A DNA stretch of 64,000 bases, taken from positions 46,996,001 through 47,060,000 of the forward strand of contig NC_043007.1 of assembly GCF_006345805.1 (NCBI RefSeq), in the 5' to 3' direction. Source of the stretch: Octopus sinensis (Eukaryota). Of the stretch, positions 7,000-59,708 are shown piece after piece. The notes under the pieces are model-generated. The model was not told where the DNA came from. It ran no database searches and saw nothing but the letters and a program-made list of their open reading frames with translations. Each line of letters starts with the position of its first letter. Position 1 is the first letter of the stretch. Position numbers and translations under genes: made by a program.

Positions 7000-9560
7000 C
7001 AGCAACAAAAATATTTTTATTAATTTTTTATTCCCCTTAAACGGGTCATCCTCACCAAATTCACCCATCTTTTAACAGGTTTACTGGGAAGCAGCACTTC
7101 CCATTCTCCACTCACGTTCCTTTTCACGTGAAATCTGAAAACGGTGATGAGGGCTTGCTTGAGGAGAAAAGTGCCTGTCTTCAGCCCTTTCAATTACGTT
7201 CACCACGTCACCTATTTCACCATAACCACCAGACAGAAAAAAGTCCCTGCCTTTCTGTGACAAAGAAGTTTGGCGATCGTCAAGAAGAAGTCCGTCGATA
7301 GCTGAATCCGTCCTAGACTGGAAAATGCAGGAGTACATTCCGAACGGTTTTGTCGCTCTATAGACATTGCGAACAGAACTGTCTGGCAACACCTTCGTAC
7401 ATGTAGAGATTATCCTGAACTGACAAAGCCCCCAGGAATCACTACCATGCCACTGATTTCTGGCAATTATCCGTAACCACCAGCCCCCACGTCCGAACGT
7501 CCTCAGCAGCTAACTTATTTCTCTCGATGTCCACAGCTTTCCCTATGTCATCGAGATACTTTTTCGCCACTAATCACCAATAGAACCCCAAGGTCGAATT
7601 TCCATCGTCTGCATTACCCGGCTGGTAGAGAGCTGTGAGCGTTTGACGAAACACCAGGTGCCTATCGCCTTTACTCAGTCTCCGATTTATCCAGACCGTA
7701 GGTCAGACACTGAGACATACTGAGTAAAATCCTGCCTTACAAACGGTGACAACACCGGCTGAACATCAAGGAATCGCTGGAGATTTTCCAGCCTTAGAGC
7801 ATGTCTGTACATCATGAACTACATCATGTCCATCACTCTACGCAGCGGCTGCTGACAACAAATGGATCGTCTGACAAGTGGAACCTGTCCCATCCATCCA
7901 GTCTTCCAAGATGTTCTCGGGTAGAATGGATCTACTTCTCCTCTCATCGATTCGCATTCCTTTGGGGTAGTACCGATCACCACGATTTTCGAGATATCAT
8001 ACTATTACGGTGACGTTATTCGCGTAAGCGACATGAATCTTTTGCATCCTAGTTCACGCATAAAACATCCATTTTCTGCAATAGTAGCTCGACAGTCAGC
8101 ACGCAGAGAAGGAATGAGAGGAAGCATGCTTTGCAGGACAAACATATGATGTTAAACGATTCCGATCGGTGGCCTGATCACTGAGCACTATCGCTGTACA
8201 TAGCCAGGCCGAAGCCGAACACCGCGCGAACGTTTCCCCAAGTATTGATGTTCTAGCCAATCGAAAGATTTCGATTGATACAAACTGATCAGGGATCTAT
8301 CAGTTTCCTTCCTACCCTCTCTGTGATGTAGTCGTCGATAGGTCTTTTTGAGATAGGGCATATCTGCCCATCAGTGACCAGTCATTCAACGGCAAGCGCC
8401 AACTTCTTGGTTAACGCCTTGGCCAAAATCACTTCATCTAATTTTAGCAGAGTTACCAGCCTAAAATTATCACGATATCGCCCACTATACTGTTCGGATC
8501 TTTTCTCAGCAGCACCACCACAGCCAATGAGCCAAGAGATCACCGAATAAGTCTGGGAATATGAAGACAAAAGCACGAAACTATCCAATGCCGGTGACTT
8601 TTCACTTGTAATTGTATCACGCATGTCTTCTGCTATTATCGGCATTTCGTAGAACTCCCCATCCCTGGCCCAACCTTGTGGGAGGCCGTCAAAGTATGTG
8701 ATAAGATCACCTTCGTTCCCCACCCACCACTCTCTCCGTACAGTTCATCAGAATGCTTCTTGAATTCCACACACAATTGCTTTGGTTCGAATAGCAAGAG
8801 CTTATCTTGACCTTTCAAAGATCAAATTGTGGCTTTGCTGCCATGTAACGACTCTGTCATTCCGGCCTCTCAAAAGTCTCCCGTCTCTCTTGTCTTACAG
8901 CACGCGTCCTAGCTCTGACAACGCGGCCTTAATACTTAGCAGTTGTTCGAGAGTCAATCTCGTCGCCAGCATGTCGGTCGTTTTACCTTTCCAAAGTTCC
9001 CCTTCTACCTTCCTAACTAGGTCTATCTCTGCTCTAGATTTTGCTATGGCTATTCCTTCGCTAAATCATAATGCAATTATTGTAAATGGGTGGATGTGGC
9101 GAGTGCTCACATCTCCTCCGTCTTCATTTATCGCCTGAACGTTGCTCCCTAACACGATTGCAGCTTTAGTTACTTGTGGAAATGATGTGCCCTAATGGCC
9201 CAGCGGTGAGTCTGATATCGGTACCCTTTGAGTAGTGGCTTAGGTACACTGCCTTTCTCATTCGCAGACACGTGCTCAGGCTGCAATGATTTCTGGACGG
9301 TAAGCAGATGTGGTCTCCGTTTTTGAGGCAAGTCATTCAGTAGCTCATCGCCTAATCTGTGAGCAATAGTCCAGGATAAAGAAAATACAAGACCACGAGT
9401 GAGCACCTGACACCTAGAGTATCACCAGGTACTCAAAGCCTTCAACCACTGGGGTCCGAACATGTCTTATTTTCATTTTTTTTATCATTTCATCATATGT
9501 AAACCCCAACACTTTATCTCTGTAGTGTTCCTCTCGTCCATCACCAAGGTAGAAAAGTAA
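7000..9560 (-). mobile_element. Decayed Tx1/L1-clade non-LTR retrotransposon ORF2
   Basis: ORF 8382-8723 has KSPALDS and DNFRLVTLLKLDEVILAKALTKKL, matching the RT N-terminal motifs KSPGxDG and RPITLLNxDYKILAK. GC content is higher than the flanks; boundaries are approximate. Confidence 0.75.
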
Positions 9561-9569
9561 ATAAATTAA

Positions 9570-9617
<48 letters not shown>

Positions 9618-9618
<1 letters not shown>

Positions 9619-11660
9619 GTCACACAGTATACAATATCGTGAGGTTGTTGATCGTAGCTATTACGTCTACTAGGAGTCTGTATTGTCTGTCAGGTTACAA
9701 CAATGACCTCAGACATACAGTACTTTACGCAATATACGTGCAGTCCCAAGTAATGCCAATTTTTGAAATACACCCAGATTGTAGGGTATTTCTAAAGTTT
9801 CAGATGTGCTTTTCAGATTGGGTGTTATTGAACCCAATACTTCGATGACAATAGGGATAACCTTTATGTTTGACTCTCGTAGCTGCCACATTTTAGCTAT
9901 CTCTATTTTCAGGTCTTCACAGTTATCAGTCTTTTCTCTTTCTTTCGTGATATGTTGATCTCCTGGCACAGCCGCGTCATCTATTAGGCACTCTTGTTTC
10001 TCCCCCCTAAAGATTATTATATCCGGTCTTCGGTGCTCTAATACATTGTCTGTCTGGTAGTCAAAGTCCCAGAAGATTTTTGCTTTCTCCTTTTTGTCCA
10101 TTACCTTTCCAGGTGTATGTTCGTACCAAGCACTCGTAACCTCATATCCGTACTTACAACATAGATACCAATGGAGGTTTTCAGATACCTTGTGGTGTAT
10201 GCGCTCGTACTCTTTCTGTGTAATATTTTCACAAGCACTAACAATGTGAGTCACAATTTCCACCCTCTTTTAGGTCACCACGATGATGCTTCCTGGTCAA
10301 AATTCATGAGCACTCTCAAGTCCATTTTTGTTAAATTCTTCTGCATTAGGAGCATACTGTAGCGGGTCTTGTTTGCTGTTCACCAAATATTGTTATGTTT
10401 CTTCTTTCACTGCTGATGCCCTCCGTACGCTATTCAGCCCACGTCCACTTTTACCATCTTCATGTAGAGCCTGTGTACATTCACCTTAGGGTGGGGAGCA
10501 CCATACATTGTCATTATCTTTCGGGTACTACAATCGAGTTGGTTAATCTCCGCTTGTGTCCATTTCAGGATGCGTGATCTATAGCGGACTACAACAACCG
10601 CCCTTATGCTGATGGCATTCACAAGATTCCTTGAGTTGAGGTTTGATTTCAAGGGACGTTTAAGGAGCTTGAAATATACAATGATGACGTCGTCGTTCAT
10701 TTCTTTTTGCAAGATATTGTCCAGCTCCAGTATCCCAAGATACTTCAACCCATCATCAACCGGGTCTTCCATTATCCCTTCCTTTGGCAATTATATGCCT
10801 CTGCAATTTACTTATTTCCCCCGATTCACAGTAAGCAACGCACACTTCGATATATGGAATTCCATCCCAAATACCTTGCTGCAAATTTACAGTCTCACCC
10901 AGCCTCTCTATTTCAGTTTCTGTTTTGGCAAACAGTTTTAAATCATCCATGACAAGAAGGTGGTTGAGACGAAGTTTATTCTTTCTCAGCTCACAGTGCG
11001 TGTAAACTTTGCGTAGGACTACAGAAAGTGTGAGAAAGGCTATAACAAATAACAGAGGTGAACAAGATTCTCCTTGGAAGATACTTATTTTGATTGTTAC
11101 CTCGTCTAAGTGCTAGTTGTTACAGGAAAGACGTGTTTTCTAACTAGGCATGCTGTTCTTAATCAGTGCACACACGTTCTCAGCTATTCCACACATGTTG
11201 AGTAAGCCTTTTTAAAGTCTATCCAGGCATGCACAATTTCTTTTTTTGGTACCGTTTTTAGTTCTTCATTACAACCTTGCCTACAAGGTGGTCCTTTGTA
11301 GCCTTGCATACTTTTCGGCACCCCTTTTGTTCTAATGGAAGTATATTGTTTTCCGCAAGGAACGTATATATTGTCTATGCAGGGATGCCTGTTATCACTA
11401 TCCATAAGAAGTTGAGTCAAGCAACGGGTCGGTAATTGCTAACCTCATTACCCATTGACCGGTCTTCAATCAACAATGATGTCGTTCTCTCTACAATCTA
11501 AACCGGAACTGCTCCACACTGTAGGCACACTCTCAAATTGCAACGCAAAGACGCTTGTGTGTTGACCTAAACCACTTGAGCCAGTAGCCTTGAATTACGT
11601 CTGGTACTGCTGCTTCCTAGTTTAGCAGTTTTGATACCTGTGCAATTACATTTTCCGTTG
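9618..11660 (-). mobile_element. Decayed R4/Dong-like non-LTR retrotransposon (RT plus restriction-like endonuclease)
   Basis: MDDLKLFAK, KYLGILE, HIVSAC..H and RRPDIII..LIDDAAVP..KEREK motifs. The 3' UTR abuts (TAA)n at 9571-9617. Confidence 0.85.
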
Positions 11661-25057: not shown

Positions 25058-25058
<1 letters not shown>

Positions 25059-25610
25059 GAGAAAGAAGCAACAAGAATGGATTGGTTTTTAGTACAATTG
25101 TTTCATACAAAGACAGGCTTTATTACAAGTTGCAAAAATTGCAGCAGATAAAAGTGTCCCGTACTCATCAGCTAAAATACATTTGAGTTCTCTAGACATC
25201 TTAGTGGGTGAGGTTATATTCATGAAATATTGGAGATAGTTCCATTAGAGGCAGATATAGGTTGTAAACAGTTATATATTTCTTGCTAATACAACAAAAT
25301 TCTGTCTGCAACAGTTTAGATGTGAAATGAACCGATGTGTGACCAACAGCTTTCCTTATGTCTCCTGGAATTTATATTTATATCTGCATCTTTATGGATG
25401 GATTTACCTTCTATGAGAAGTTAACAAACATTTTAAAAACATTTTTTTAAAAACTGTGCATTATTAGGAAACATTTTAAGTCTGCTTATTATCTGGCTTC
25501 AAATTCATAGAACTCTTAATACTTCATATGGATAGTTACATTATCTAGGATGTCTGGAAAACATACATGTGATTTAGCTGATGAATACTGGACATTGTAT
25601 TTGCTGCAAT
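25058..25610. mobile_element. Non-coding PLE-like unit with inverted HHR-bearing ends
   Basis: Full HHR on the minus strand at the left end. A diverged partial plus-strand copy (tttagctgatgaatactggaca) lies at ~25545-25610. Flanked by (TA)n. Confidence 0.65.
25087..25177 (-). ncRNA. Type I hammerhead ribozyme with long stem II (family B)
   Basis: Minus strand: ttttag-CTGATGA-gtacgggaca...tgtctttgtat-GAAA-caattg-TA-ctaaaa. Palindromic stem III, GUA triplet. Confidence 0.82.
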
Positions 25611-30079: not shown

Positions 30080-32283
30080 AAGAGCCAATGAAGATACACA
30101 CAGACTATCGTAGTGGCGCGAGATGTACTACATATTCAGCTGTTCACTACCAGTGAACTAATGTAACACCTCTTAATTTTCGAGCACCTTCCGGAGTATT
30201 CCAGCGGTTCCAGGCAGTGCTGTTTTCTCCACCCTTATTGCAGCCCCTATTTGTTCCACGTACGTCTCGAGATTTTTGCTCATTGTTCCCAGGGATCCGA
30301 CAATTATTGCTACTACTGCTATCTTTTTCATCGACCACAACTGCTTAAATTCCCAATCTAACCTGTCATATCTCCCGACTTTTCTTTCTTTCTTATCGCA
30401 TACCTTGTCGGCTGGGCATGCTATATCTATGGTCCAGCGTAATTTGTTTTCTTTCAGAATTAAGACTATGTCCGGCTTCCTGTTCTCTATCTCATGGTCG
30501 CAGTGAATCATAAAATCCAATAGGATCTTTGCATTTCTATTTTCGATGATGCCTTCAGGTTTGTGGTCGTACCAAGTTTTTGATCTGTGAAGTCCATACT
30601 TGTTGCAAAGTGTCCAATGGACAAACCTGGCTATATGGTTGTGGCGTCTCTTATATTCCTTCTGGGCTAGTGGCATACGTTAGCTGGTAATATGCCATAC
30701 GGTTTCACCGTTTTGTTCACAGATTCTGCATTATCACTTTCTGCTGTGTTGTCTATTTTGTATTGTATGTAGTTTGTTCTTAGTGCTTGCTCTTGGACAG
30801 CATAGATTAGAGTCTCCGTTTCCGGTTTTAAACAATTTTTGTCATCCACAGCCTTCTTTTTTCTCTGTTGGTCATATCTTCAACATCCCTATGAAATTGA
30901 TCATGCATTCTTTTCTTTACCCACCTATTTTCAGTTTCATTCGTTTTCAATTTCTTGTATATTACTTTATCTTTGCAATCTTTTAACCTACACAAACCTG
31001 ACCTTCTTACTTCTAATAATAGCGGTTCCGTGGCATTTTTTGCATACCATGCTATGTTTTTATCTTCTGCTCTACTGCTGTGTTCGCATCCAATAAGTTC
31101 TCTTCCCCCTACTTTCTTGGTAAATACTGACTGTCTGTGTCACATTTTGGGTGGAATGACCCATTTCTAGTTAGCAACTTCCTTGTCTTTCTGTCTAAGC
31201 TGTTTAATTCCTCTACTGTCCATGCGATTACCCCTGCTCCATATCTAAGGAGTGAAACTGTCAAGGTGTTGATAGCTTCGATCTTATTCTGTCCATTAAA
31301 TTCCGACATAAGGATTAGTCTCAGTCTGTGCAAGCACTCCACCTTAAATTTTTCTGTCATTTCTTTCTCCAACAATTTATCCATTTCCAAAATCCCCAAG
31401 TACCTGTAGCCCGTCTCTTCTGTCTGCTTCATAACCTCCCCCGATGGTATCGCTAGCCCGCTCATACTTTTGATTTTGCCTTTTTTCAAGAATATCACAC
31501 ACTTTCTCAGTCCGTACTCCATTCTGATATTAGAACTGAAGGTATACGCCATATCAACGAGGGAACTGACTTGGGTTTCATCTTTACCATAAAGTTTGAG
31601 GTCACCTATGAATAACAAATGGTTGACTTTTCGTTGGCGGCTTTTGAATACATACCCAGCTTTTGCTTTCCTCAGAATCAGTGTTAGTGGTATCAAGCAC
31701 AGTACAAAGATCTGTAGGGACACTAATCTTTGTACTTGGAAGATACCCGTCCTAATCTCTACTGTCCCTAAACTTCTTCCGTTTGCTGTCAGGTCCGTCC
31801 TCCAATTTGCCGTACTTTTTCCAAGCAATCACTCAACATTCGATGCAATACAAAATAGGTTCATAATTCATAATACAAGAATGTGGGATCATATCGTACG
31901 CTTTACAATAGTCGATTTATGACAAGGTTAAGTTACTTTTCTTCCTCTTGCAGTCTCTCAGTACAATTTTATCTATCAGGAGTTGATCATTGGTACCTCT
32001 GCACTTACGCTTGCAGCCCTTCTGCTCCTGTGGCAGGATTTCATTTTTTTCTAGATGTTCGTAGATTGAATCTGCGAGTATTCCAATCAATAACTTCCAC
32101 ATAAGTGGCAAACAGGATATCGGTCTGTAAGTGTCTACTGTATTGCCTTTTTCGATGTTTTCAGGCACATCACTGTCCTACCCAATGCCAATCACTCTGG
32201 TCGGCATTTAACAAGGTGTAGAGTTGCGCAGCTATTCGTGCATGACATTCCCCAAATCTGTTGATCCAGTTGCTTTGAACACC
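30080..32283 (-). mobile_element. 5'-truncated R4/Dong-like retrotransposon
   Basis: [38 protein letters not shown] and RKPDIV..IDIACP motifs. The 5' end abuts (TAA)n. Confidence 0.88.
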
Positions 32284-32303
32284 ATTATTATTATTATTAT
32301 TAA

Positions 32304-32346
<43 letters not shown>

Positions 32347-32361
32347 ATTATTATTATTATT

Positions 32362-34860
32362 ACATTTTTTTTCTTCTTTCAAATTTGCTTCCATTTCTTG
32401 CCGAGTGTCTTCCCGACTCCTAGGGCAAAGAAACTCATAGTATACATTGGTAAGCCATTAAACCAAACTCAGTAGTTCGTTTATTTTTTTATTTTTTTTT
32501 TTTTAAAGTTAAATTAAAATATATGAGCAGCAACAGTTCTCACATCGACAATGCTCTTCTCAATACGTGTGATGTACCAGTTAAGACAATCTTTTGCACT
32601 TCTTGCAGGGATGGTAAGCCAGGGATCATTCTCATATAATTTTCGGTTCCCTTCTTGATCATTCCTAGTGCTCCTACGATCACTGGTATTGTAACCGCCT
32701 TGAGATGCCACATTTTCTCAATTTCAATGAGTAGGTCTTTATATTTTCTGAGCTTGTCAAACTCTTTCGCTGAGATATTATGATCACAGGGGATGCTCAT
32801 GTCGATCGATAAGCAAACTTTATTGTTTTAGTCTTTCACAACAATATCTGGTTTATTGGCCTTGATGGGTCGGTCTGTATGTACTGGAAAGTCCCACAGA
32901 ATGGTTACATTTCCTCTTTCAGTTGCAGCCTCAGGGTGGTGATTATACCACTTGTCGGCAGTTTTGATATTGTAATGCCGACTTATTAGCCAGTGGAGAT
33001 ATTGGCCAACTCTGTCATGTCTTAATTTATACTCCACTGGTGCTAAGACTTTACATCCAGAGATTAGATGGTCCACTGTTTCAATCATGTCGTTGCAGAA
33101 TCGGCATTTTGGGTCTGCTCCATTTTTCATCACATTGGCCTGGTAGTTCCGGGTTAATAGGCTTTGATCTTGAGCAGCCAGGATGAAACCTTCGCTCTCT
33201 GCTTTTAGCCCTGAGCTCCGTAGCCACTGATGGGTTTGCTTCTGGTCAACATCAGCTTGTTTGCTGCGGGTCACATATTTGCCGTACAGAGGTTTCTCCT
33301 CCCACCTATCAGCCAATTGCTCGTGCGCTTTTTTCATTGCCATCATTTTCACCTTCTTTGCAACAATAGTTGCCGTACTTCCCTCGGTTGTTCAGTTTGG
33401 GTATCCTGCACGAGATCAATAGCAAATTTTTTGCTTTCCTTTATGATAGAATGAAGCTTCTTTCGTCTCTCGTGATTTTCCACGAGCTTTAGCATCCAGT
33501 CATTCGATATTTCGAGATATTTGGCCAGTCCAATTGTGGTTGTTTTGTAAGCTAGTTCAAATTGGATCAGGCCTCGACCTCCTTGGGCTCTGGGAAGGTA
33601 AAGGCGATCTACGTCTGCCTTTGGGTGGTGCATCCTATTACAACTCAGCAGCTTGCGTATTTTCCTATCTATATTCTTTACTTCACTCATATTCCAGTTC
33701 AACACATTGTAGCTATAAGTAACAACTGGAACTGCTAAGGAATTTATAGCTAACACCTTGTTACGTGCATTTAGTTCAGATTTCAGGACTGCACGAACTC
33801 TCATATACATTCCTTCCTGATTTTCTCTTTCATGCTTGCATGCTGAATACCAGAGCCTTCATTTATCCCTAAATATTTGTATGTTTGTTCTTGCTCAAGC
33901 TCTCTTATGACTGTGTCAACATCTAACACGACTGAATTTGTGGTCTTCACTTTCCCTTTCTGGAAAGTGGCCTTGGCACACTTCTCAAGTCCAAACTCCA
34001 TCCCGATGTCATCGCTGAATGATTTCACGGTGCGCAATAGGCCTTCAAGTTCATTATTGTCTTTACCATAAAGTTTTAAGTCATCCATATAAAATAGATG
34101 GCTTATTTTTTTATTGGTAATTTTATACCCATACTCTGTTCTGTTTAATTCACTTGTAAGGGGTATTAGGCTATGCAGAATATTAAAGGTGAAAGTGAGT
34201 CACCTTGAAAAATTCCACAGTTGATGTTTATATTTTCTGAGGCAAGTACTCCATTAGAGTGGTATAATTGGAGATTCGTATTCCACAACGACATATTGTG
34301 CTTCAGGAAGTTTGAAATCACAGGGGAAATTTTGAAGATGTCCAGTGATCTCAAGATCCATTGATGCGGTATACTGTCGAAGGCCTTTTTATAGTCAATC
34401 CATGCGGTGCTGAGATTTCTGCGCTTGTGACAGTTCTCAAGGATCATACGATTAATTAGCAGTTGATCTTTGCATCCTTATGAGCCTCGGCGGCACCCTT
34501 TTTGTTCATTGGGGAAAATATCGTTCTTCTCCATGAATGCATATGTTTTCTCCGCCAGGATAGATGTTAGGATTTTATACGTGGTGGATAAACAGGTTAT
34601 AGGCAGATAGTTTTTTGGAAGTTTGGTTTCGTTATTCTTTGGTAGTAGGTAAGTAATACCACTTGCTAACCATTCAGGTGTTTTCTTTGGCTCTCTCATA
34701 ATTCCATTTAGCAGCTGAACTAGCTTACCGTGTGCGCATGGGAGCGATGCGAGCCAGAAATTCGGCACCCTATCTTTACCGGGGGATTTCCAATTATAGA
34801 CCTTCGTGAGTGCCTTTCTTAGGTCTGCTATTGTGATGTCTTCCCATGCTTGTTGTTGTA
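32362..34860 (-). mobile_element. 5'-truncated, relatively young R4/Dong-like retrotransposon
   Basis: Near-continuous RT (WIDYKKAFDS, GIFQGDSLSPLIFC, MDDLKLY), CRFC..ETVDHLISGC..RHD and KPDIVV..D..K motifs, split by a few frameshifts. (TAA)n on both sides. Confidence 0.92.
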
Positions 34861-35069
34861 AATTATTATTATTATTATTATTATTATTAGCAGTAGTAGT
34901 AGTATTATTGTTATTATTATTTCGGTGTGAATGGTCTTTTATACGGCGCCGAGTTTACAATCCTGTAAAAAATAATTGTGGTATTTTTATATAAGCATAA
35001 AGCAATGACTAAAGAAAATAGTCTAATAAAAAGATATATAAGCCCGCGACAGAAAAAAGAAGGCTTTCC

Positions 35070-35999: not shown

Positions 36000-36555
36000 G
36001 AGTGATAGAACAATGCATGCCATCAAAGTGATACTGGGGTAAAATATATGAAGCCCACCATATACCCATCATGACTACCCGTCTGATAAGGGTACACCAG
36101 GCACATGCATCACAACCATGCGCGACATGGTGATCTCATATCAAGATAAACGGCACATGACCTTTTAGATGGGGCCTAATTAGAATTTTCTTCTGGTCGA
36201 GTAGCCTATCCCGCTCAAAAGGTCCCTGAAGAAGGATTGTTTAAGGATGTTGAAAGAAAGCACCCATGTATCCAAAGGTGAATTATCCAAACCTCCAAAA
36301 ATCCCTCTCAACACATGGCTATGACGCTCCTCCACTACTTCTGCTTATGATCAGAGACGCACATATCGTCAGCCACTAAGAGACATGGTCAACTGGTTAA
36401 GGTCAAACAACTGACAAGCAAATCTGTGGTACTGGGGAAAATATTTGCTGTAGCCCATCTTTTATACCAAGGCAAAACAATGTACATGATAACACTTCCA
36501 ATTAGTTAAGATCAGCAGCCATGACAGCCACTGCCTGGTACTGCATCAGGGCACT
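36000..36555. mobile_element. ~555-bp non-coding interspersed element, copy 1
   Basis: Same boundaries as, and high similarity to, 36572-37128; bounded by (TTA)n. Confidence 0.75.
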
Positions 36556-36571
36556 TATTATTATTATTATT

Positions 36572-37128
36572 GAGTGAGAGAGCAGTGCATGCCATCAAAG
36601 TGACACTGGGGTAAAATATACGAAGCCCAATATACCCATCATGACTACCCGTCTGATAAGGGTACACCAGGCACATGCATCACAACCATATGTGCGCGGC
36701 ATGGTGATCTCATATCAAGATTAACAGCACATGACCTTGCAGGTGGAGCCCAGTTAGAATTTTCTTCAGGTTGAGTAGCCCATCCCGCTCAAAAGGTCCC
36801 TGAATAAGGGTTGTTTAAGGATGTTGAAAGAACCACCCAGGTTTCCAGAGGTGAATTATTCAAACCCCAAAGAATCCCTCTCAACACATGGCTATGATGC
36901 TCCTCCACTACTTCTTCTCGTGATCAGAGACGCACATATCGTCAGCCACTAAGGGACGTGGTCAACTGGTTAAGGTCAAACAACTGACAAGCAAATCTGT
37001 GGTATTGAGCAGAATATTTGCTGTAGCCCATCTTTTATACCAAGACAAAACAATGTACATGATAACACTTCCAATCAGTTAAGATCAGAAGCCATGAGAG
37101 CCACTGCCTGGTACTGCATCAGGGCATT
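36572..37128. mobile_element. ~555-bp non-coding interspersed element, copy 2
   Basis: gagtgagagagcagtgcatgcc...ggtactgcatcagggc between (TTA)n tracts. Confidence 0.75.
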
Positions 37129-41791: not shown

Positions 41792-42058
41792 GCAATTAAG
41801 GACAACTACTTAATAAGGAAAACTTAACAAGAAATTGTCAGGTAGATAGCGTGAAAACCTCATAAGAGAATAAATTTCGAAAATAATTATTTCTTATTGA
41901 ACATATTAATCTATATATAGAGGGCATTATACATACATGCCAGAGGGCATTATACATACATGCCACACGCTAAGAGGGACAATTAGTCATTTCTACCAAA
42001 AATATTACTAATCCCACCGAATGCAATTTTTCAAAGTAAGACATTTAAAAAATATAGA

Positions 42059-42100
42059 CCTGTATCACAGTGATTTCATACTTACGTATTCATCAGCAGG
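42059..42100 (-). ncRNA. Type I hammerhead ribozyme, array 1 copy 1
   Basis: Minus strand reads CCTG-CTGATGA-ATAC(GTAA)GTAT-GAAA-TCAC(T)GTGA-TA-CAGG: intact core, stems I/II/III paired, AUA cleavage triplet. Confidence 0.92.
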
Positions 42101-42534
42101 CCTGAATGTATCATAAATAAACGACCCTGCCCCGCTTAAGCCGATCAGCTAACTGATCAACATCAACGAAGCACATGGGTGAGTTTACATATATTACATC
42201 CTGTAAATGGCATACTTTTACGAATTGCATTTCGGGAAAGGAAAAGTTTTTTCGGAATAAAAATTTAGCAATTAAGGACAACTACTTAATAAGAAAAACT
42301 TAACAAGAAATTATCAGGTAGATAGCGTGAAAACCTCATAAGAGAATAAATTTCGAAAATAATTATTTCTTATTGAACATATTAATTTATATATAGAGGG
42401 CATTATACATACATGCCAGAGGGCATTATACATACATGCCACACGCTAAGAGGGACAATTAGTCATTTCTACCAAAAATATTACTAATCCCACCGAATGC
42501 AATTTTTCAAAGTAAGACATTTAAAAAATATAGA

Positions 42535-42576
42535 CCTGTATCACAGTGATTTCATACTTACGTATTCATCAGCAGG
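42535..42576 (-). ncRNA. Type I hammerhead ribozyme, array 1 copy 2
   Basis: Identical to 42059-42100, 476 bp away. Confidence 0.92.
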
Positions 42577-43010
42577 CCTGAATGTATCATAAATAAACGA
42601 CCCTGCCCCGCTTAAGCCGATCGTCTAACTGATCAACATCAACGAAGCACATGGGTGAGTTTACATATATTACATCCTGTAAATGGCATACTTTTACGAA
42701 TTGCATTTCGGGAAAGGAAAAGTTTTTTCGGAATAAAAATTTAGCAATTAAGGACAACTACTTAATAAGGAAAACTTAACAAGAAATTGTCAGGTAGATA
42801 GCGTGAAAACCTCATAAGAGAATAAATTTCGAAAATAATTATTTCTTATTGAACATATTAATTTATATATAGAGGGCATTATACATACATGCCAGAGGGC
42901 ATTATACATACATGCCACACGCTAAGAGGGACAATTAGTCATTTCTACCAAAAATATTACTAATCCCACCGAATGCAATTTTTCAAAGTAAGACATTTAA
43001 AAAATATAGA

Positions 43011-43052
43011 CCTGTATCACAGTGATTTCATACTTACGTATTCATCAGCAGG
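43011..43052 (-). ncRNA. Type I hammerhead ribozyme, array 1 copy 3
   Basis: Identical to 42059-42100. Confidence 0.92.
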
Positions 43053-43282
43053 CCTGAATGTATCATAAATAAACGACCCTGCCCCGCTTAAGCCGATCAG
43101 CTAACTGATCAACATCAACGAAGCACATGGGTGAGTTGAAAAATTGCATTCGGTGGGATTAGTAATATTTTTGGTAGAAATGACTAATTGTCCCTCTTAG
43201 CGTGTGGCATGTATGTATAATGCCCTCTGGCATGTATGTATAATGCCCTCTATATATAAAATATATATATATATATATATAT

Positions 43283-53921: not shown

Positions 53922-54451
53922 TATGTATATGTATATATATGTATGTATAAATACAAAAACGGAACAATGTTACACAAATATAAAAACAATAAAAATACAA
54001 TAAAAATAATAACAGGATATAAATAAACAAGTGTCGTTCGACTAAAGACGAACTGAATTAAGCTGGCGCGAGTGGAAATGAAGCCTTACGGCAGAGATAC
54101 AACAATGTCACAAACACAGGGAAAAATATCGATGTTGCACGGACAACTGTCAGACCAACAAAGAAAGAACAGGCTTGGCCGTGGTGGTCAGAGAGAGAAG
54201 TAGAAGCAGGGGGACGGAAGAATTAGGGAGGGACGAGGAAAAATGACAGGGACACAGTGTAGTGAAAAGTGGAGGCAAAGCGAGTAAGAAGAGACGGCAA
54301 AGAAATGTGAGAGAGGCGAAACAAAAGAACGAAGAGTGGAATGAACGAATAAGCGTGAAAGGGCTGACAGACAGAAATAGAGTCGTACAAGATTTAGTAA
54401 AATGTGTCCTTACATATAAGAGACCAAATTGTACGTGCGCCGCTATATATG

Positions 54452-54483
<32 letters not shown>

Positions 54484-54756
54484 AAAATTTAGCAATTAAG
54501 GACAACTACTTAATAAGGAAAACTTAACAAGAAATTGTCAGGTAGATGGCGTAAAAACCTCATAAGAGAAAAAATTTCGAAAATAATTATTTCTTATTGA
54601 ACATATTAATTTATATATAGAGGGCATTATATATACATGCCAGAAGGCATTATACATACATGCCAAACGCTAAGAGGGACAATCAGTCATTCTACCAAAA
54701 ATATTACTAATCCCACCGAATGCAATTTTTCAAAGTAAGACATTTAAAAATATAGA

Positions 54757-54797
54757 CCTGTATCACAGTGATTTCATACTACGTAATCATCAGCAGG
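54757..54797 (-). ncRNA. Type I hammerhead ribozyme, array 2
   Basis: CCTG-CTGATGA-TTAC..GTAT-GAAA-TCACTGTGA-TA-CAGG on the minus strand, with a 1-nt deletion in loop II. Confidence 0.8.
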
Positions 54798-55230
54798 CCT
54801 GAATGTATTATAAATAACACAAACCCTGCCCGCTAAGCCGATCAGCTAACTGATCAACATCAACGAAGCACATGGGTGAGTTTAAATATATTACATCCGG
54901 GTAAATGGCAAGCTTTTACGAGTTGCATTTCGGGGAGAGGAAAAGTTTTTTCGGAATAAAAATTTAGCAATTAAGGACAACTACTTAATAAGGAAAACTT
55001 AACAAGAAATTGTCAGGTAGATAGCGTAAAAACCTCATAAGAGAAAAAAATTCGAAAATAATTATTTCTATTGAACATATTAATTTATATATAGAGGGCA
55101 TTATATATACATGCCAGAAGGCATTATACATACATGCCAAACGCTAAGAGGGACAATCAGTCATTTCTACCAAAAATATTACTAATCCCACGAATGCAAT
55201 TTTTCAAAGTAAGACATTTAAAAATATAGA

Positions 55231-55271
55231 CCGTATCACAGTGATTTCATACTTACGTAATCATCAGCAGG
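55231..55271 (-). ncRNA. Type I hammerhead ribozyme, array 2
   Basis: Same motif with a 1-nt deletion in stem I. Confidence 0.78.
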
Positions 55272-55706
55272 CCTGAATGTATTATAAATAAAAACAACGA
55301 CCCTGCCCCGCTTAAGCCGATCAGCTAACTGATCAACATCAACGAAGCACATGGGTGAGCTTACATATATTACATCCGGGTAAATGGCAAACTTTTACGA
55401 ATTGCATTTCGGGAGAGAAAAGTTTTTTCGGAATAAAAATTTAGCAATTAAGGCAACTACTCTAATAAGGAAAAATTAACAAGAACTTTGTCAGGTAGAT
55501 AGCGTAAAAACCTCATAAGAGAAAAAATTTCGAAAATAATTTTTCTATTGAACATATTAGTTTATATATAGAGGGCCATTATATATACATGCCAGAAGGC
55601 ATATACATACATGCCAAACCTAAGAGGGAAATCAGTCATTTCTACCAAAAATATTACTAATCCCACCGAATGCAATTTTTCAAAGTAAGACATTTAAAAA
55701 TATAGA

Positions 55707-55748
55707 CCTGTATCACAGTGATTTCATACTTACGTAATCATCAGGCGG
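55707..55748 (-). ncRNA. Type I hammerhead ribozyme, array 2
   Basis: Core intact; the 5' strand of stem I is altered. Confidence 0.7.
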
Positions 55749-56029
55749 CTGAAGTATTATAAATAAACAACGACCCTGCCCCGCTTAAGCCGATCAGCTA
55801 ACTGATCAACATCAACGAAGCACATGGGTGAGTTTACAATAAAAATTTAGCAATTAATTGCTAAATTTTTATTCCGAAAAAATTTCCTCTCCCGAAATGC
55901 AATTCGCATAAAGTTTGCCATTTACCGGATGTAATATGTAAACTCACCCATGTGCTTCGTTGATGTTGATCAGTAGCTGATCGGCTTAAGCGGGGCAGGG
56001 TTCGTTGTTTATTTATAATTACATTCAGG

Positions 56030-56070
56030 CCGCTGATGATTACGTAAGTATGAAATCACTGTGATACAGG
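56030..56070 (+). ncRNA. Type I hammerhead ribozyme, array 2 inverted arm
   Basis: ccg-CTGATGA-ttacgtaagtat-GAAA-tcactgtga-TA-cagg. Confidence 0.78.
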
Positions 56071-56505
56071 TCTATATTTAAATGTCTTACTTTGAAAAAT
56101 TGCATTCGGTGGGATAGTAATATTTTTGGTAGAAATGATATGATTGTTCCCTCTTAGCGTTTGGCATGTATGTATATGCCTTCTGGCATTGTATATATAA
56201 TGCCCCTTATATATAAATTAATATGTTCAATAAGAAATAATTATTTTCGAAATTTTTTCTCTTATGAGGTTTTTACGCTATCTACCTGACAATTCTTGTT
56301 AGTTTTCCTTATTAAGTAGTTGTCTTAATTGCTAAATTTTTATTCCGAAAAAACTTTTACTCTCCCGAAATGCAATTGTTAAAAGTTTGCCATTTACCCG
56401 GATGTAATAATATTGTAAACTCACCCATGTGCTTCGTTGATGTTGATCAGTTGGCTGATCGGCTTAAGCGGGGCAGGGTCGTTGTTTATTTAGAATACAT
56501 TCAGG

Positions 56506-56547
56506 CCTGCTGATGATTACGTAAGTATGAAATCACTGTGATACAGG
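56506..56547 (+). ncRNA. Type I hammerhead ribozyme, array 2 inverted arm
   Basis: cctg-CTGATGA-ttacgtaagtat-GAAA-tcactgtga-TA-cagg. Confidence 0.85.
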
Positions 56548-56768
56548 TCTATATTTTTAAATGTCTTACTTTGAAAAATTGCATTCGGTGGGATTAGTAA
56601 TATTTTTGGTAGAAATGGACTGATTGTCCCTCTTAGCGTTTGGCATGTATGTATATGCCTTCTGGCATGTATATATAATGACCTCTATATATAAAATATA
56701 GATAGATATATATATATATAATATAAAAGTATAACTCCACACTAAGATGTCTAGAGAACTCAAATGTA

Positions 56769-56856
56769 TTTAGCTGATGAGTACGGGACACTTTTATCTG
56801 CTGCAATTTTTGCAACTTGTAATAAAGCCGTCCTTGTATGAAACAATTGTACTAAA
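56769..56856 (+). ncRNA. Type I hammerhead ribozyme with long stem II (family B, second locus)
   Basis: tttag-CTGATGA-gtacgggac...gtccttgtat-GAAA-caattg-TA-ctaaa. The host segment 56725-56887 matches 25058-25220 in reverse complement. Confidence 0.85.
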
Positions 56857-56898
56857 AACCAATCCATTCTTGTTGCTTCTTTCTCGTTTATATATATC

Positions 56899-56932
<34 letters not shown>

Positions 56933-56993
56933 ATATATATTTAGTGAAGGAAGAAATGGAGCTGAACGAAGATTCTACAGAATTCCTTTTATT

Positions 56994-57079
56994 ATTTTCT
57001 ACACATGTTTCAAAGGCCGCAAATTTCCAAATTCGGACTGAATAAGGAGACCATTTTGCAGCTTTCTCTTCAGGAAAAT
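56994..57079 (-). ncRNA. Type I hammerhead ribozyme, long stem II (family C, left arm)
   Basis: Reverse complement of 57463-57548 with one stem II substitution that keeps pairing as G-U. Confidence 0.85.
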
Positions 57080-57462
57080 CCAGGAATTTAAAACTCCAAA
57101 ACAAATGCGCATCAAGGTATTCGAACAAAACGCTCCTTAGGAGCCCATGAAATAGCACAAAACTGTCTCTCAATTTGCGTTGATGTCAGGGGGGGTGGAG
57201 GCCGACGAAAAAGTCCGTTGGAATAAATCAGGTCAAACTGCGGTCAAACCTGGTAGTGGAAGAAATACTGAAAACCAAAGGGTGTGAATATATTCTGTAT
57301 AACTAATGCTAATGTTCGGAATGTTTTAAGAATTAAGGCTGTCTTATTTAAGGTGTGAGAACCTGCCTACATGTATGTGTGTGCGCTCCTGTGTATGTGT
57401 GGGAAGGAGCGTTTTGTTCGAATACCTTGCTGCGCATTTGTTTTGGAGTTTTAAATTCCTGG

Positions 57463-57548
57463 ATTTTCCTGAAGAGAAAGCTGCAAAATGGTCTCCTTAT
57501 TCAGTCCGAATTTGGAAATTTGCAGCCTTTGAAACATGTGTAGAAAAT
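57463..57548 (+). ncRNA. Type I hammerhead ribozyme, long stem II (family C, right arm)
   Basis: attttc-CTGAAGA-gaaagctgcaaa...tttgcagccttt-GAAA-catgtg-TA-gaaaat. Distal stem I extension aattcct/aggaatt. Confidence 0.87.
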
Positions 57549-57798
57549 AATAAAAGGAATTCTGTAGAATCTTCGTTCACTCCATTTCTTCCCTTCACTA
57601 AATATATTAAAGTTCAATTATCCGCGCTAAGGCACGGTTGCGACACCCCAAGGTCGTAACTCCAACCGTGTTTTTTCTGTTGTGATTTTTGCTACCCAGG
57701 TATCGGTTAAATTTTGAATAATCCTTAACAAGATAATTCATTTATCCATTTCAATATATATATATATATATATATATAGATGTATGTATGTATGTATG

Positions 57799-57857
<59 letters not shown>

Positions 57858-57867
57858 AATATATATA

Positions 57868-57909
<42 letters not shown>

Positions 57910-57912
<3 letters not shown>

Positions 57913-58291
57913 TAATTAATCAAACCAGTTTGACTCAGTTTTTCGGCACTACGAGAGTTTCGAGCGTGATGCCAATCTTCGCTCATTTTGAATTTGAATG
58001 ACAGAAGTTGATTGTTATTACAGTAAGGTGGACTGCGATTGGTCGCGGAATGTCATGTAATATCGTGGTTTGATGGTGATTTAACTGTAATCAGTGACGA
58101 CCGTTAGTTGAAAAACACCGCATGGTGGACAGGAAATCAGTAAAATTGCTGGAGGGGAGGTAGAAAGTGTCGGTATGCGCAAGTACATAGTTGTATATAT
58201 GGGTGCGTGGACGTGCTCATATGGTTTTACGAGCATGCCTGTATTGATGCGCGCGTGTGCATCTGCATATGGGAGCGCACATGCACACGCT

Positions 58292-58344
<53 letters not shown>

Positions 58345-59495
58345 GAACAGACATGCGCGCATACACACACTTGTATACACATGGACGCACACATATACTA
58401 TCCACACATGCGTATTTATTCATATATACAAGTCATGCATTCATACATGCACACATGCATGTTAGTGTCAAATCTCGCATATGAAAGACCTTGAGAGCTT
58501 CGAGTCTGACCTATGGAACGTTGTAAAGAAGGTGAGGTCTAGGCATGATTCTAAACCCTTCCTTAAATCCCTAAATGACTATATGATCAGCATTAAGCAA
58601 TCACCCAACATACACATACTCGCAGACAAAGCAAAGAACATTTACGAAATAAATACTTCCATAATATATTAAACATCGCACGCATCCAACTTCGCACGCA
58701 TCAACAGACGTAAAACTGCTCCCGCACCACCCCAACCCCAACCGGCCCTCTAAAGGATCTTGCCTCACAAGGGCTCTAGTAGACAGATACACCCTTTCAC
58801 CATCAGACGGCATTAGTAGGCACTATACCGGTGTGTCAGCCAATGACATCAAGGGAAAATACTCTCAGCATATGCACAAGTTCAGATCCAGGGACAGAGA
58901 GAACTCTCCTTCCCACTCTCATTTTGTTTGGAGCCTCCGTGACCACCGAGACGAAACATCCAGCATCGAGTGGACTATTGTCGACAGAGCCCTACCATAT
59001 TCACCCGACACTCACGACTGCCAGCTCTGCTTCCCTGAAAAACTGCATATACTCTAACAACCCGCAGTATCCATCAACAAGAAATACGATTCATCTTATT
59101 CCTGTCACCCACAGTATGCCCCTCTGGCGAATTTCAAGCCTCTGATTGCCGACAACCTGGATATACCTCCTTAGTACCAGCTGCTACTCTGCACCCCCTG
59201 CACCCAAGTCACCGTACTCAATAAAGCCTATGAGCAGGACCGCCAAATACCAATTCCCAAGCTTACCAGCCCATGCATTGTACTTATGAATGAATCCGCA
59301 TGTGTGTGCGTGTGTGCATGTGTTGCCCACCTTACGGTAATGACAATCAAGTCCTTTCAATCAAATTCAAAGTGGCTGAAGATCAGTATCACGCTTGAAA
59401 CTCTCGGAGTACCAACGAATTTGAACCAAGCTGCTTTGATCCATATATGTAACTCCCAATAAATGTTGAGTGCTCTCCTTTCGTTTGTCCACTCA

Positions 59496-59500
<5 letters not shown>
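57910..59500 (+). mobile_element. Internally deleted Penelope-like element (Naiad-like) with inverted 5' pLTR copy and HHR-bearing 3' pLTR
   Basis: 58481-58672 resembles a PLE N-terminal region (..ILADKAKNIYEI). ~58740-59140 encodes a GIY-YIG-like segment (GSCLTRALV..YTGVS..QHMHKF..IEWTIVDRALPY..CQLC..EKLHIL). RT is missing. 57915-58040 is an inverted, diverged copy of ~59325-59445. Confidence 0.75.
59361..59424 (+). ncRNA. Type I hammerhead in PLE pLTR (family H)
   Basis: caaattc..tgg-CTGAAGA-tcagtatcacgctt-GAAA-ctc(tcg)gag-TA-cca..gaatttg. Stem II is weak; a degenerate inverted homolog lies at ~57945-57985. Confidence 0.72.
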
Positions 59501-59534
<34 letters not shown>

Positions 59535-59708
59535 TAATATATATAATATATATATATAAATATAAATATATATATAAATTATAAAATATATATATAAATA
59601 TAAATATATATATAATATATAATATATATATATAAATATAAATATATATATATATAAATATATAAATATATAATATAAAATATAAATATATATATCTAAA
59701 TATAATAT

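What the first reader, a model, noticed from the sequence alone, without database searches (positions are those of the whole stretch)
56940..57603. Apparent MITE whose 200-bp inverted arms each encode an outward-pointing hammerhead with a very long stem II
Seen: both arms contain attttc-CTGAAGA-[55-nt stem II domain, gaaagctgcaaa/tttgcagccttt]-GAAA-catgtg-TA-gaaaat, with a distal stem I helix. A TIR finder would label this a DNA transposon. The ribozymes suggest it is instead a retro-derived inverted pLTR pair (inference). Read-through transcription would give a long dsRNA hairpin that competes with ribozyme folding.
Basis: partly seen in the sequence, partly recalled or inferred. Interest (0 to 1): 0.75.

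Follow-up and report, generated by a model that had tools for sequence, protein, structure and literature searches.

The report
Penelope-type foldback with long-stem hammerheads
This MITE look-alike is most likely a short back-to-back insertion left by a Penelope-like retroelement, a known layout, and its one unusual feature is a predicted self-cutting RNA motif with a side stem two to five times the usual length, which standard ribozyme searches miss.

Summary
Arms 56935-57138 and 57404-57607 are about 98% identical, and each carries an outward-facing type I hammerhead motif with a 55-nt stem II domain. It is not a MITE. In other sequencing runs the family continues 146 bp past the right 'TIR' to a second (TA)n, coverage peaks on the hammerhead, and some copies continue differently at the right junction. 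A 5'-truncated unit with an inverted 3' copy, a one-sided extension and a (TA)n target is the published footprint of Penelope-like elements (PLEs). Three other repeats in this window show the same geometry, one of them a Hydra-type PLE remnant. No parent ORF was found, so the clade is open. The stem II length is unusual: 55 nt here and 59-60 nt in a second family, against 10-25 nt in 41 of 41 control PLE hammerheads. Rfam misses it. A 53-nt precedent exists in a plant PLE. Conservation of the catalytic core across copies was not shown, and cleavage is untested. In read-through RNA the arm duplex removes every hammerhead helix. Verdict: a new variant of a known kind, of modest interest.

The parts
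56889..56939 (.). (TA)n run at the left end of the insertion; the neighbouring family-B fragment also ends in it
   Evidence: sequence
56940..57138 (-). left arm: hammerhead-bearing 3' segment reading leftwards, ending about 60 nt after the predicted cut at an AT-rich word that merges into (TA)n
56981..57088 (-). left hammerhead motif (core starts at 57073; predicted cut after 57000)
   Evidence: extent mirrored from the right arm fold
57139..57403 (.). 265-nt non-coding internal segment, multi-copy in other runs; the left junction recurs in other copies, the right junction has alternatives
   Evidence: tables 2, 5, 7, 8; no ORF of 45 aa or more lies wholly inside it
57404..57607 (+). right arm: hammerhead-bearing segment reading rightwards
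57454..57561 (+). right type I hammerhead motif: distal stem I 57454-60/57555-61, proximal stem I 57463-68/57543-48, core 57469-75 and 57531-34, stem III 57534-41, predicted cut 57542/57543
57476..57530 (+). 55-nt stem II domain: G.U closing pair, 11-pair proximal helix with one mismatch, distal hairpin
57608..57753 (+). 146-nt one-sided extension that belongs to the family (continuous with the arm in other runs)
   Evidence: contigs 57539-57627, 57581-57685, 57580-57724; all 30 bins covered in 4 of 4 runs
57754..57779 (.). (TA)n run at the true right end of the insertion
   Evidence: sequence
56730..56886 (+). context: second family (B), a 3'-end fragment with a 59-nt stem II hammerhead (core 56774-56851); second copy at 25058-25218 (-)
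57920..59490 (+). context: internally deleted Hydra-type PLE with an inverted 3' copy at its left end and an extension of about 45 nt only on the right; same layout as the finding
54488..56690 (.). context: 475-bp hammerhead tandem repeat, left copies on -, right copies on +, ends in (TA)n; a related array lies at 41792-43260

Best explanation
The stretch 56940-57753 is one insertion made by Penelope-like-element (PLE) machinery into a (TA)n run: a 5'-truncated 3' segment of a PLE or of a non-autonomous PLE derivative, with an inverted copy of its hammerhead-bearing end joined at the 5' side. Shown: the anatomy, the multi-copy status, the asymmetry, and the same geometry in neighbouring repeats. 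Inferred: a PLE protein nicks both strands of the AT-rich target and primes two cDNAs from the 3' region of the RNA, one from each side of the break, starting at two different AT-rich points (57607 and 57753). Both stop early and are joined 5' to 5', most likely at 57403/57404 over 3-4 shared bases, which leaves the hammerheads facing outwards. The hammerhead is inherited from the parent's pLTR, where it would cut tandem transcripts as a dimer through its self-complementary stem III, possibly with help from the element's protein. In this inverted copy it has no cis partner and any read-through RNA pairs it with its own antisense, so this copy is probably inactive as a ribozyme. The 55-nt stem II is a family trait, not a feature of this copy alone.
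For: Asymmetry: contigs bridge the end of the right arm into 57608-57753 (table 8: X1 records 6 and 7, X7 records 31 and 32). Coverage is not flat: summed contig depth in X1 is 2,000-38,000 over 57139-57432, 296,000-552,000 over the two halves of the hammerhead and 45,000-89,000 over 57559-57663; the same shape appears in 4 of 4 runs (the tool warns that depth is not a copy number). At the right junction, X1 record 3 matches 57322-57405 with 1 difference and then carries 69 letters that do not lay, and X2 has a loose end behind 57402. The left junction recurs (X1 loose end before 57404; X7 joint 57150 to 57406 on opposite strands). The hammerhead grammar equals that of PLE hammerheads: 41 motifs in 33 of 77 Hydra-type PLE loci, and Craig 2021 File S2. 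Stem III is self-complementary, -6.0 kcal/mol as a dimer, with pair probability 0.11 as a monomer. Four of 4 inverted structures of hammerhead repeats in the window are joined 5' to 5', and one carries PLE protein remnants (1311 hits at E up to 0.001; E 1e-9 to the N-terminal part of an RT-endonuclease ORF). The layout is published (PMC8557442; PMC8969392; PMC4209133). Two-strand nicking, internal RT starts and protein-assisted cleavage are shown for the Anolis element in PMC11167929. Long stem II is shared: X2 record 11 and X4 record 21 match only 57452-57541, with 15 differences and 0 gaps, and unrelated flanks.
Against: No RT or GIY-YIG ORF was found in or linked to this family, and no genome is held to look for one. 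The element shows no meaningful similarity to the 77 PLE loci (best blastn E 0.18). The extension is 146 nt, against 30-40 nt for the published tail. The hairpin motif that follows 26 of 31 Hydra-type hammerheads is absent. Core conservation is not demonstrated: none of the 8 variant sites shown in 57454-57561 hits the 13 core positions, but chance gives that 35% of the time and 58 of 98 variant rows were not shown. Three of those 8 variants (57483, 57487, 57546) break a predicted pair unless the partner also changes, which the output does not show. Only 32 of 2533 contig pieces were listed, so copies that bridge the right junction may exist unseen. With upstream arm sequence the hammerhead fold is 10-13 kcal/mol above the best fold; 10 of 23 control PLE hammerheads also have stem I probability under 0.1 in context.
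Confidence: 0.72

Rival explanations
1. A fixed-structure, non-autonomous foldback family: the whole unit (left arm, 265-nt core, right arm, extension) is copied as one by PLE enzymes, so the inverted pair is inherited and not made anew at each insertion.
For: The internal segment is multi-copy right up to the left junction, and that junction recurs in runs of other samples (tables 2, 5, 7). Depth over the first 30 nt of the arm is similar to that of the internal segment.
Against: Copies exist that continue into non-arm sequence at the right junction (X1 record 3, X2 loose end behind 57402), and other upstream sequences join the arm at 57406, 57443 and 57454. A full-length RNA would fold into a -339 kcal/mol duplex, a poor template (inference).
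Confidence: 0.17
2. A true MITE or foldback DNA transposon whose terminal repeats captured, or happen to contain, a hammerhead.
For: Non-coding, about 660 bp, long near-perfect inverted arms, TA at both arm ends.
Against: The right arm continues into family sequence. Depth differs more than tenfold along the element. The hammerhead is shared with families whose flanks differ. The arm ends read TAGTG...CACTA, the reverse of CACTA termini (consensus recalled). The TA flanks are explained by (TA)n targeting.
Confidence: 0.05
3. The motif is a decayed or non-catalytic relic or look-alike; the 55-nt domain is an insertion that killed an ordinary hammerhead and was then amplified passively.
For: The competing fold is favoured by 10-13 kcal/mol; the whole motif has z near -1; some family variants break pairs; core conservation is not significant.
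Against: Chance is excluded for the motif as such (7 cores against 0.1). A second, unrelated family has a 59-60-nt stem II with the same closing G.U pair and palindromic stem III. The stem II length is kept without gaps at 83% identity where flanks no longer align. Variants at 57494 and 57516 are partners in the predicted fold. This rival concerns activity, not origin, and can coexist with the best explanation.
Confidence: 0.04
4. A non-autonomous DIRS-type element (inverted terminal repeats, right-hand extension, internal complementary region).
For: Inverted repeats with an extension on the right one resemble DIRS anatomy (PMC8969392 passage; the extension is recalled).
Against: No internal complementary region: local alignments of the internal segment with the extension and with the left end score at shuffle level on both strands.
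Confidence: 0.02

Closest known systems
PLE insertions with an inverted 5'-truncated copy and one-sided tail (Craig et al. 2021, PMC8557442, Fig. 2 legend; Penelope-13_HM in Files S1 and S2)
   Same: Inverted repeat flanking the unit, hammerheads on both strands facing outwards, (TA)n target, extension at one end only.
   Different: No ORF between the arms; extension 146 nt against 30-40 nt; stem II domain 55 nt against at most 24 nt in the 26 animal rows of File S2 (my count by eye).
Minimal type I hammerheads of metazoan PLEs (Cervera and de la Pena 2014, PMC4209133)
   Same: Type I topology, palindromic stem III, no stable monomer stem III; opposite-strand pairs 100-700 bp apart were reported in Schistosoma mansoni.
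   Different: Helix II there is 6-8 bp; here 11 pairs plus a distal hairpin, and stem I is extended by a 7-bp distal helix beyond an internal loop.
Hydra-clade PLE hammerheads (File S2 of PMC8557442; 77 loci)
   Same: CTGAnGA, then G pairing with a pyrimidine before GAAA, then CA..TG and TA; one control has the 6-nt palindrome form.
   Different: Stem II 10-25 nt in 41 of 41 controls; the downstream hairpin motif seen in 26 of 31 controls is absent here.
PLE-X1_sMoe and PLE-X1_sTam hammerheads of Selaginella; Naiad 'HHR_half_core' cases (PMC8557442)
   Same: Long stem II region: 9 bp + 35-nt loop = 53 nt in PLE-X1_sMoe, flagged as deviating; eight Naiads have core halves 35-50 nt apart.
   Different: Those are plant endonuclease-less elements or incomplete cores; here the core is complete, in an animal-type repeat. 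Six words from this window's hammerheads were not found in that supplement (line breaks could hide a word).
Non-LTR retrozymes (PMC7229834; bioRxiv 10.64898/2026.07.22.740005)
   Same: Short, non-coding, type I hammerhead, proposed PLE derivatives.
   Different: Retrozymes are direct tandems; no direct tandem of this family is in the window. The 475-bp neighbour fits this class better.

Membership tests
Penelope-like element (EN+) | ORF with telomerase-like RT and GIY-YIG endonuclease | tested here: not met
   No such ORF inside 56940-57753; parent not found; no genome held. Hence 'mobilised like a PLE', not filed as an autonomous PLE.
Penelope-like element (EN+) | Type I hammerhead near the 3' end with palindromic short stem III | tested here: met
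Penelope-like element (EN+) | Inverted 5'-truncated copy joined at the 5' end | tested here: met
   Arms joined 5' to 5'; alternative continuation at the right junction
Penelope-like element (EN+) | 30-40-bp tail at one end only | tested here: inconclusive
   A one-sided extension is present but 146 nt long; the neighbouring PLE remnant has about 45 nt
Penelope-like element (EN+) | Insertion into AT-rich or (TA)n targets without a clear duplication | tested here: met
   (TA)n at both true ends
Penelope-like element (EN+) | Direct partial tandem (pLTR) in full-length copies | not testable with these tools
   No host assembly; contigs laid were short
Hydra clade of PLEs | Hairpin motif after the hammerhead (my own observation in controls, not a published criterion) | tested here: not met
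   26 of 31 controls and the neighbouring remnant have it; this element does not
MITE / TIR DNA transposon | Inverted repeats are terminal on both sides | tested here: not met
   Family sequence continues past 57607
MITE / TIR DNA transposon | Uniform length and ends among copies | tested here: not met
   Depth varies more than tenfold along the element, with several alternative upstream sequences (depth is only a rough guide)
MITE / TIR DNA transposon | Target-site duplication and a partner transposase | not testable with these tools
   (TA)n flanks hide a duplication; no genome
Hammerhead ribozyme (type I) | Conserved core and three helices | tested here: met
   not recognised by Rfam models
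Hammerhead ribozyme (type I) | Core conserved and helices covarying across copies | tested here: inconclusive
   0 of 8 shown variants in the core (chance 0.35); one partner pair varies together in the table; three variants break pairs on their own
Hammerhead ribozyme (type I) | Self-cleavage | not testable with these tools
   needs an assay
Non-LTR retrozyme | Direct tandem units each with a hammerhead | tested here: inconclusive
   None in the window; genome not available
DIRS-type element | Internal complementary region | tested here: not met

The most novel reading that the evidence does not exclude
This genome holds several high-copy PLE-associated families whose hammerheads carry a selected 55-60-nt domain in stem II (a protein-binding or switching module, or a docking partner for the bulged stem I). 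These are active ribozymes that Rfam and the published descriptors cannot see, so hammerheads of animal PLEs are undercounted and some 'half-core' or 'hammerhead-less' elements may in fact have one.
Probability: 0.3. Interest if true: 0.6.

Novelty: new variant of a known kind. Interest (0 to 1): 0.35.

Why it matters
The layout itself is ordinary for Penelope-like elements and mainly a warning: TIR finders will file such insertions as MITEs. The long stem II could matter more. It lies far outside the range of 41 control PLE hammerheads and beyond the 7-17-nt spacer used in a published core search (PMC8557442), it occurs in two unrelated families within 64 kb, and it appears to be high-copy. 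If it cleaves, ribozyme censuses of invertebrate genomes miss a class, and the role of hammerheads in PLEs, which PMC8557442 calls unclear, gains a natural variant to test. Foldback copies like this one are also candidate sources of long dsRNA (inference).

Tried and rejected
No host genome is held, so no genome-wide copy alignment, empty-site or ORF-linkage test was possible. Rfam: 0 matches at gathering score in the window; at E up to 10 over 54400-59600, 29 matches, none a hammerhead, mostly microsatellite-like miRNA models. Exact family motif in metagenome contigs and viral contigs: 0 and 0. Sequencing runs: no RNA holder listed on record; the run X7 is RNA only by guess, and no pile-up of ends was listed (table 6; contigs cannot show ends), so there is no evidence on expression or cleavage either way. 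Joints that skip 314-349 bases (table 5) have sides under 30 letters at 80% likeness and were set aside. Pfam on 8 window ORFs: only a weak zf-RVT hit outside the finding; Pfam on 8 more proteins gave no RT or GIY-YIG family, so the PLE call for the neighbour rests and my comparison by eye with Hydra-1_Obim rows. A word-index search with the neighbour's endonuclease piece found nothing. PLE loci in viral contigs: none. DIRS internal complementary region: none. Strand skew and a CRE-like word did not settle which strand is the parent's sense (4 of 30 controls have the word). The bacterial promoter scan is at chance level and not relevant. Earlier-findings look-ups by sequence, by place and two word sets returned nothing. 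Literature: 7 searches found no paper describing a 55-60-nt stem II in an animal PLE hammerhead; Lunse et al. 2017, the most likely place for such variants, could not be read, and the preprint's supplements were not seen.

Full report
1. Observation. The arms are real: 56935-57138 and 57404-57607, 204 nt, 265 nt apart, with 2 substitutions and 2 one-base indels. A scan for type I hammerheads over both strands of the window found 7 cores against a mean of 0.1 in 30 shuffles. Stem I has 6 proximal and 7 distal pairs around an internal loop. Stem II closes with G.U and has 11 proximal pairs with one mismatch and a distal hairpin (z -2.8, 1 of 300 shuffles). Stem III is weak as a monomer (probability 0.11) but self-complementary (-6.0 kcal/mol as a dimer). 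Rfam sees no hammerhead here. The window is rich in microsatellites and LINE-like fragments and looks like an invertebrate animal genome; that it resembles octopus DNA is my recollection, not a result, and no genome is held.

2. True extent. The stretch is held, in part, by 20 of 24 listed runs from 9 studies and four coded organisms; none holds half of its words. I laid 57139-57750 on 4 of them (contigs only). All 30 bins are covered in all 4. Contigs run from the right arm into the sequence beyond it (57539-57627, 57581-57685, 57580-57724), so the family continues to the (TA)n run at 57754, and the insertion is 56940-57753 with a 146-nt extension on one side. Summed depth in run X1 is 2,000-38,000 over 57139-57432, 296,000-552,000 over the two halves of the hammerhead (73,000 between them), 45,000-89,000 over 57559-57663, and 223,000-557,000 over 57664-57726. 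The tool warns that this is no copy number; I use only the shape, which is the same in the 4 runs and is not the flat profile of a MITE. Different upstream sequences join the arm at 57406, 57443 and 57454. Two 252-nt contigs match only 57452-57541, with 15 differences and no gap, so a related family keeps the long stem II while its flanks have diverged beyond 80%. The left junction recurs (X1 loose end before 57404; X7 joint 57150 to 57406 on opposite strands). At the right junction, X1 record 3 matches 57322-57405 with one difference and then leaves the reference for 69 letters, and X2 has a loose end behind 57402. I read the right junction as the breakpoint of this copy; the two junctions share 3-4 bases and differ by a 5-base gap. 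This rests on 32 of 2533 listed pieces and is moderate evidence.

3. Conservation of the ribozyme. Of 98 variant rows 40 were shown, and 8 fall in 57454-57561. None is in the 13 core positions, which chance would give 35% of the time. Positions 57494 and 57516 are partners in the predicted fold and their variants pair with each other; 57524 and 57547 keep a G.U pair; 57504 is in the loop; 57483, 57487 and 57546 break a pair unless the partner changes too, which is not shown. The table does not link variants on one molecule. So selection on the core is not demonstrated.

4. Neighbours. Immediately left lies a fragment of a second family (56730-56886; another copy at 25058-25218) with a 59-60-nt stem II, a G.U closing pair, a palindromic stem III and an end in (TA)n. 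It has no convincing sequence similarity to the finding. Immediately right lies an internally deleted PLE. Its frame 58665-59054 matches 1311 proteins at E up to 0.001 and GIY-YIG clusters by features (0.92-0.94), and 58469-58669 matches the N-terminal part of P0074, a 690-aa RT-endonuclease ORF, at E 1e-9. It has a short-stem hammerhead near 59378, a degraded inverted copy at its 5' end, and about 45 extra bases only on the right. Two arrays of a 475-bp hammerhead repeat (41792-43260, 54488-56690) also carry inverted parts. All 4 inverted structures are joined 5' to 5' and end in TA-rich runs. The finding is therefore one of several products of the same process.

5. Control for stem II. From relatives of P0074 I fetched 77 metagenome loci with this type of ORF (the best of 365 confirmed stretches). 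A scan allowing stem II up to about 125 nt, slightly different in its stem II rule, found 41 hammerheads in 33 of 77 loci and 0 in shuffles; all 41 have a stem II domain of 10-25 nt. Their grammar is that of the finding. This control covers one clade, and several loci are near-duplicates. In File S2 of PMC8557442, the 26 animal rows have at most 24 nt, while PLE-X1_sMoe has 53 nt and is flagged as deviating (counted by eye). A hairpin motif follows the cut in 26 of 31 controls and in the neighbouring remnant, but not in the finding, so I do not file it under Hydra.

6. How it most likely works. Published: PLE insertions are 5'-truncated, often with an inverted copy at the 5' end, a tail at one end and (TA)n targets (PMC8557442); the Anolis element nicks and extends both strands, starts reverse transcription at two internal sites downstream of the hammerhead, and its hammerhead cleaves only with the protein present (PMC11167929); metazoan PLE hammerheads work poorly and as dimers (PMC4209133). 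Inferred here: two cDNAs primed from the two sides of a break in (TA)n, started at 57607 and 57753, truncated and joined. In a read-through RNA from either side only one hammerhead is in sense and its antisense precedes it; the arm duplex is -339 kcal/mol and all four tested hammerhead pairs drop to probability 0. Even a single arm prefers a fold in which 57430-57452 pairs with the GAAA, stem III and cut site, by 10-13 kcal/mol; 10 of 23 control hammerheads also lose stem I in context and 8 of 23 keep it, so this does not disqualify the motif. This copy is probably silent as a ribozyme; any activity belongs to tandem parent transcripts.

7. Novelty. The architecture is known. The long stem II in an animal-type, apparently high-copy family was not found in 7 literature searches, but it has a plant precedent and a hint in eight Naiad 'half-core' cases, and one key paper (Lunse et al. 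2017) could not be read. I rate it a new variant of a known kind, interest 0.35.

8. What I saw of each paper. PMC8557442: passages, supplement parts 1-2 of 59 and search rows. PMC4209133: parts 1-2 of 4. PMC11167929: parts 1-2 of 4. bioRxiv 10.64898/2026.07.22.740005: part 1 of 5 and passages, supplements not seen. PMC7229834, PMC6765202, PMC8969392, PMC13725137: passages only. CACTA termini, the DIRS extension and the CRE label are recalled.

Noticed in passing
window 56730-56886 (+) and 25058-25218 (-): A second repeat family with a complete type I hammerhead motif and a 59-60-nt stem II domain, ending in (TA)n about 35 nt after the predicted cut; 96% identical between the two copies. A further weak 65-nt match lies at 25545-25609.
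   Followed up: partly
window 57920-59490: Internally deleted Hydra-type PLE: an N-terminal piece close to the endonuclease with the RT missing, a short-stem hammerhead near 59378 and an inverted degraded 3' copy at the left.
   Followed up: yes
window 41792-43260 and 54488-56690: 475-bp tandem repeat with a 12-nt stem II hammerhead, retrozyme-like, in direct tandems with inverted parts and (TA)n ends.
   Followed up: partly
L001-L068, 110 nt after the hammerhead cut; window about 59452-59473: A conserved hairpin motif, GCT[C/T], 2-22 nt, GAG[C/T][A/G]C, follows the hammerhead in 26 of 31 Hydra-type PLE copies and often occurs twice before the start codon; a candidate RT or endonuclease recognition site. 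I did not search the literature for it.
   Followed up: partly
window 57664-57726: A second coverage peak as high as that on the hammerhead, in all 4 runs: a block in the extension that is kept among related families. It is T-rich and ends in a CAG/G that could be a splice site (inference).
   Followed up: no
window 56792-56816 and 57671-57695: The distal stem II of family B resembles the extension of the finding at 19 of 25 bases (2 of 200 shuffles, one of 16 tests, T-rich); probably chance.
   Followed up: partly
window 57181-57188: Nearly all contigs read C at 57184, which makes an 8-base CRE-like palindrome next to a G-rich box, about 110 nt upstream of the left hammerhead on the - strand; the label is recalled.
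   Followed up: partly
window 57430-57452 with 57527-57543: Predicted pairing of upstream arm sequence with the GAAA, stem III and cut site, a possible off-state of the ribozyme.
   Followed up: partly
window 8382-11112 and 30173-34954 (-): Broken LINE-like reverse-transcriptase fragments in several frames; a weak zf-RVT hit at 32831-33391. A 555-bp direct duplication lies at 36000-37126.
   Followed up: no
L001, L008, L019, L026, L033, L077: 6 of 77 PLE loci hold inverted segments of 50 nt or more, several at the 5' side of the ORF.
   Followed up: no
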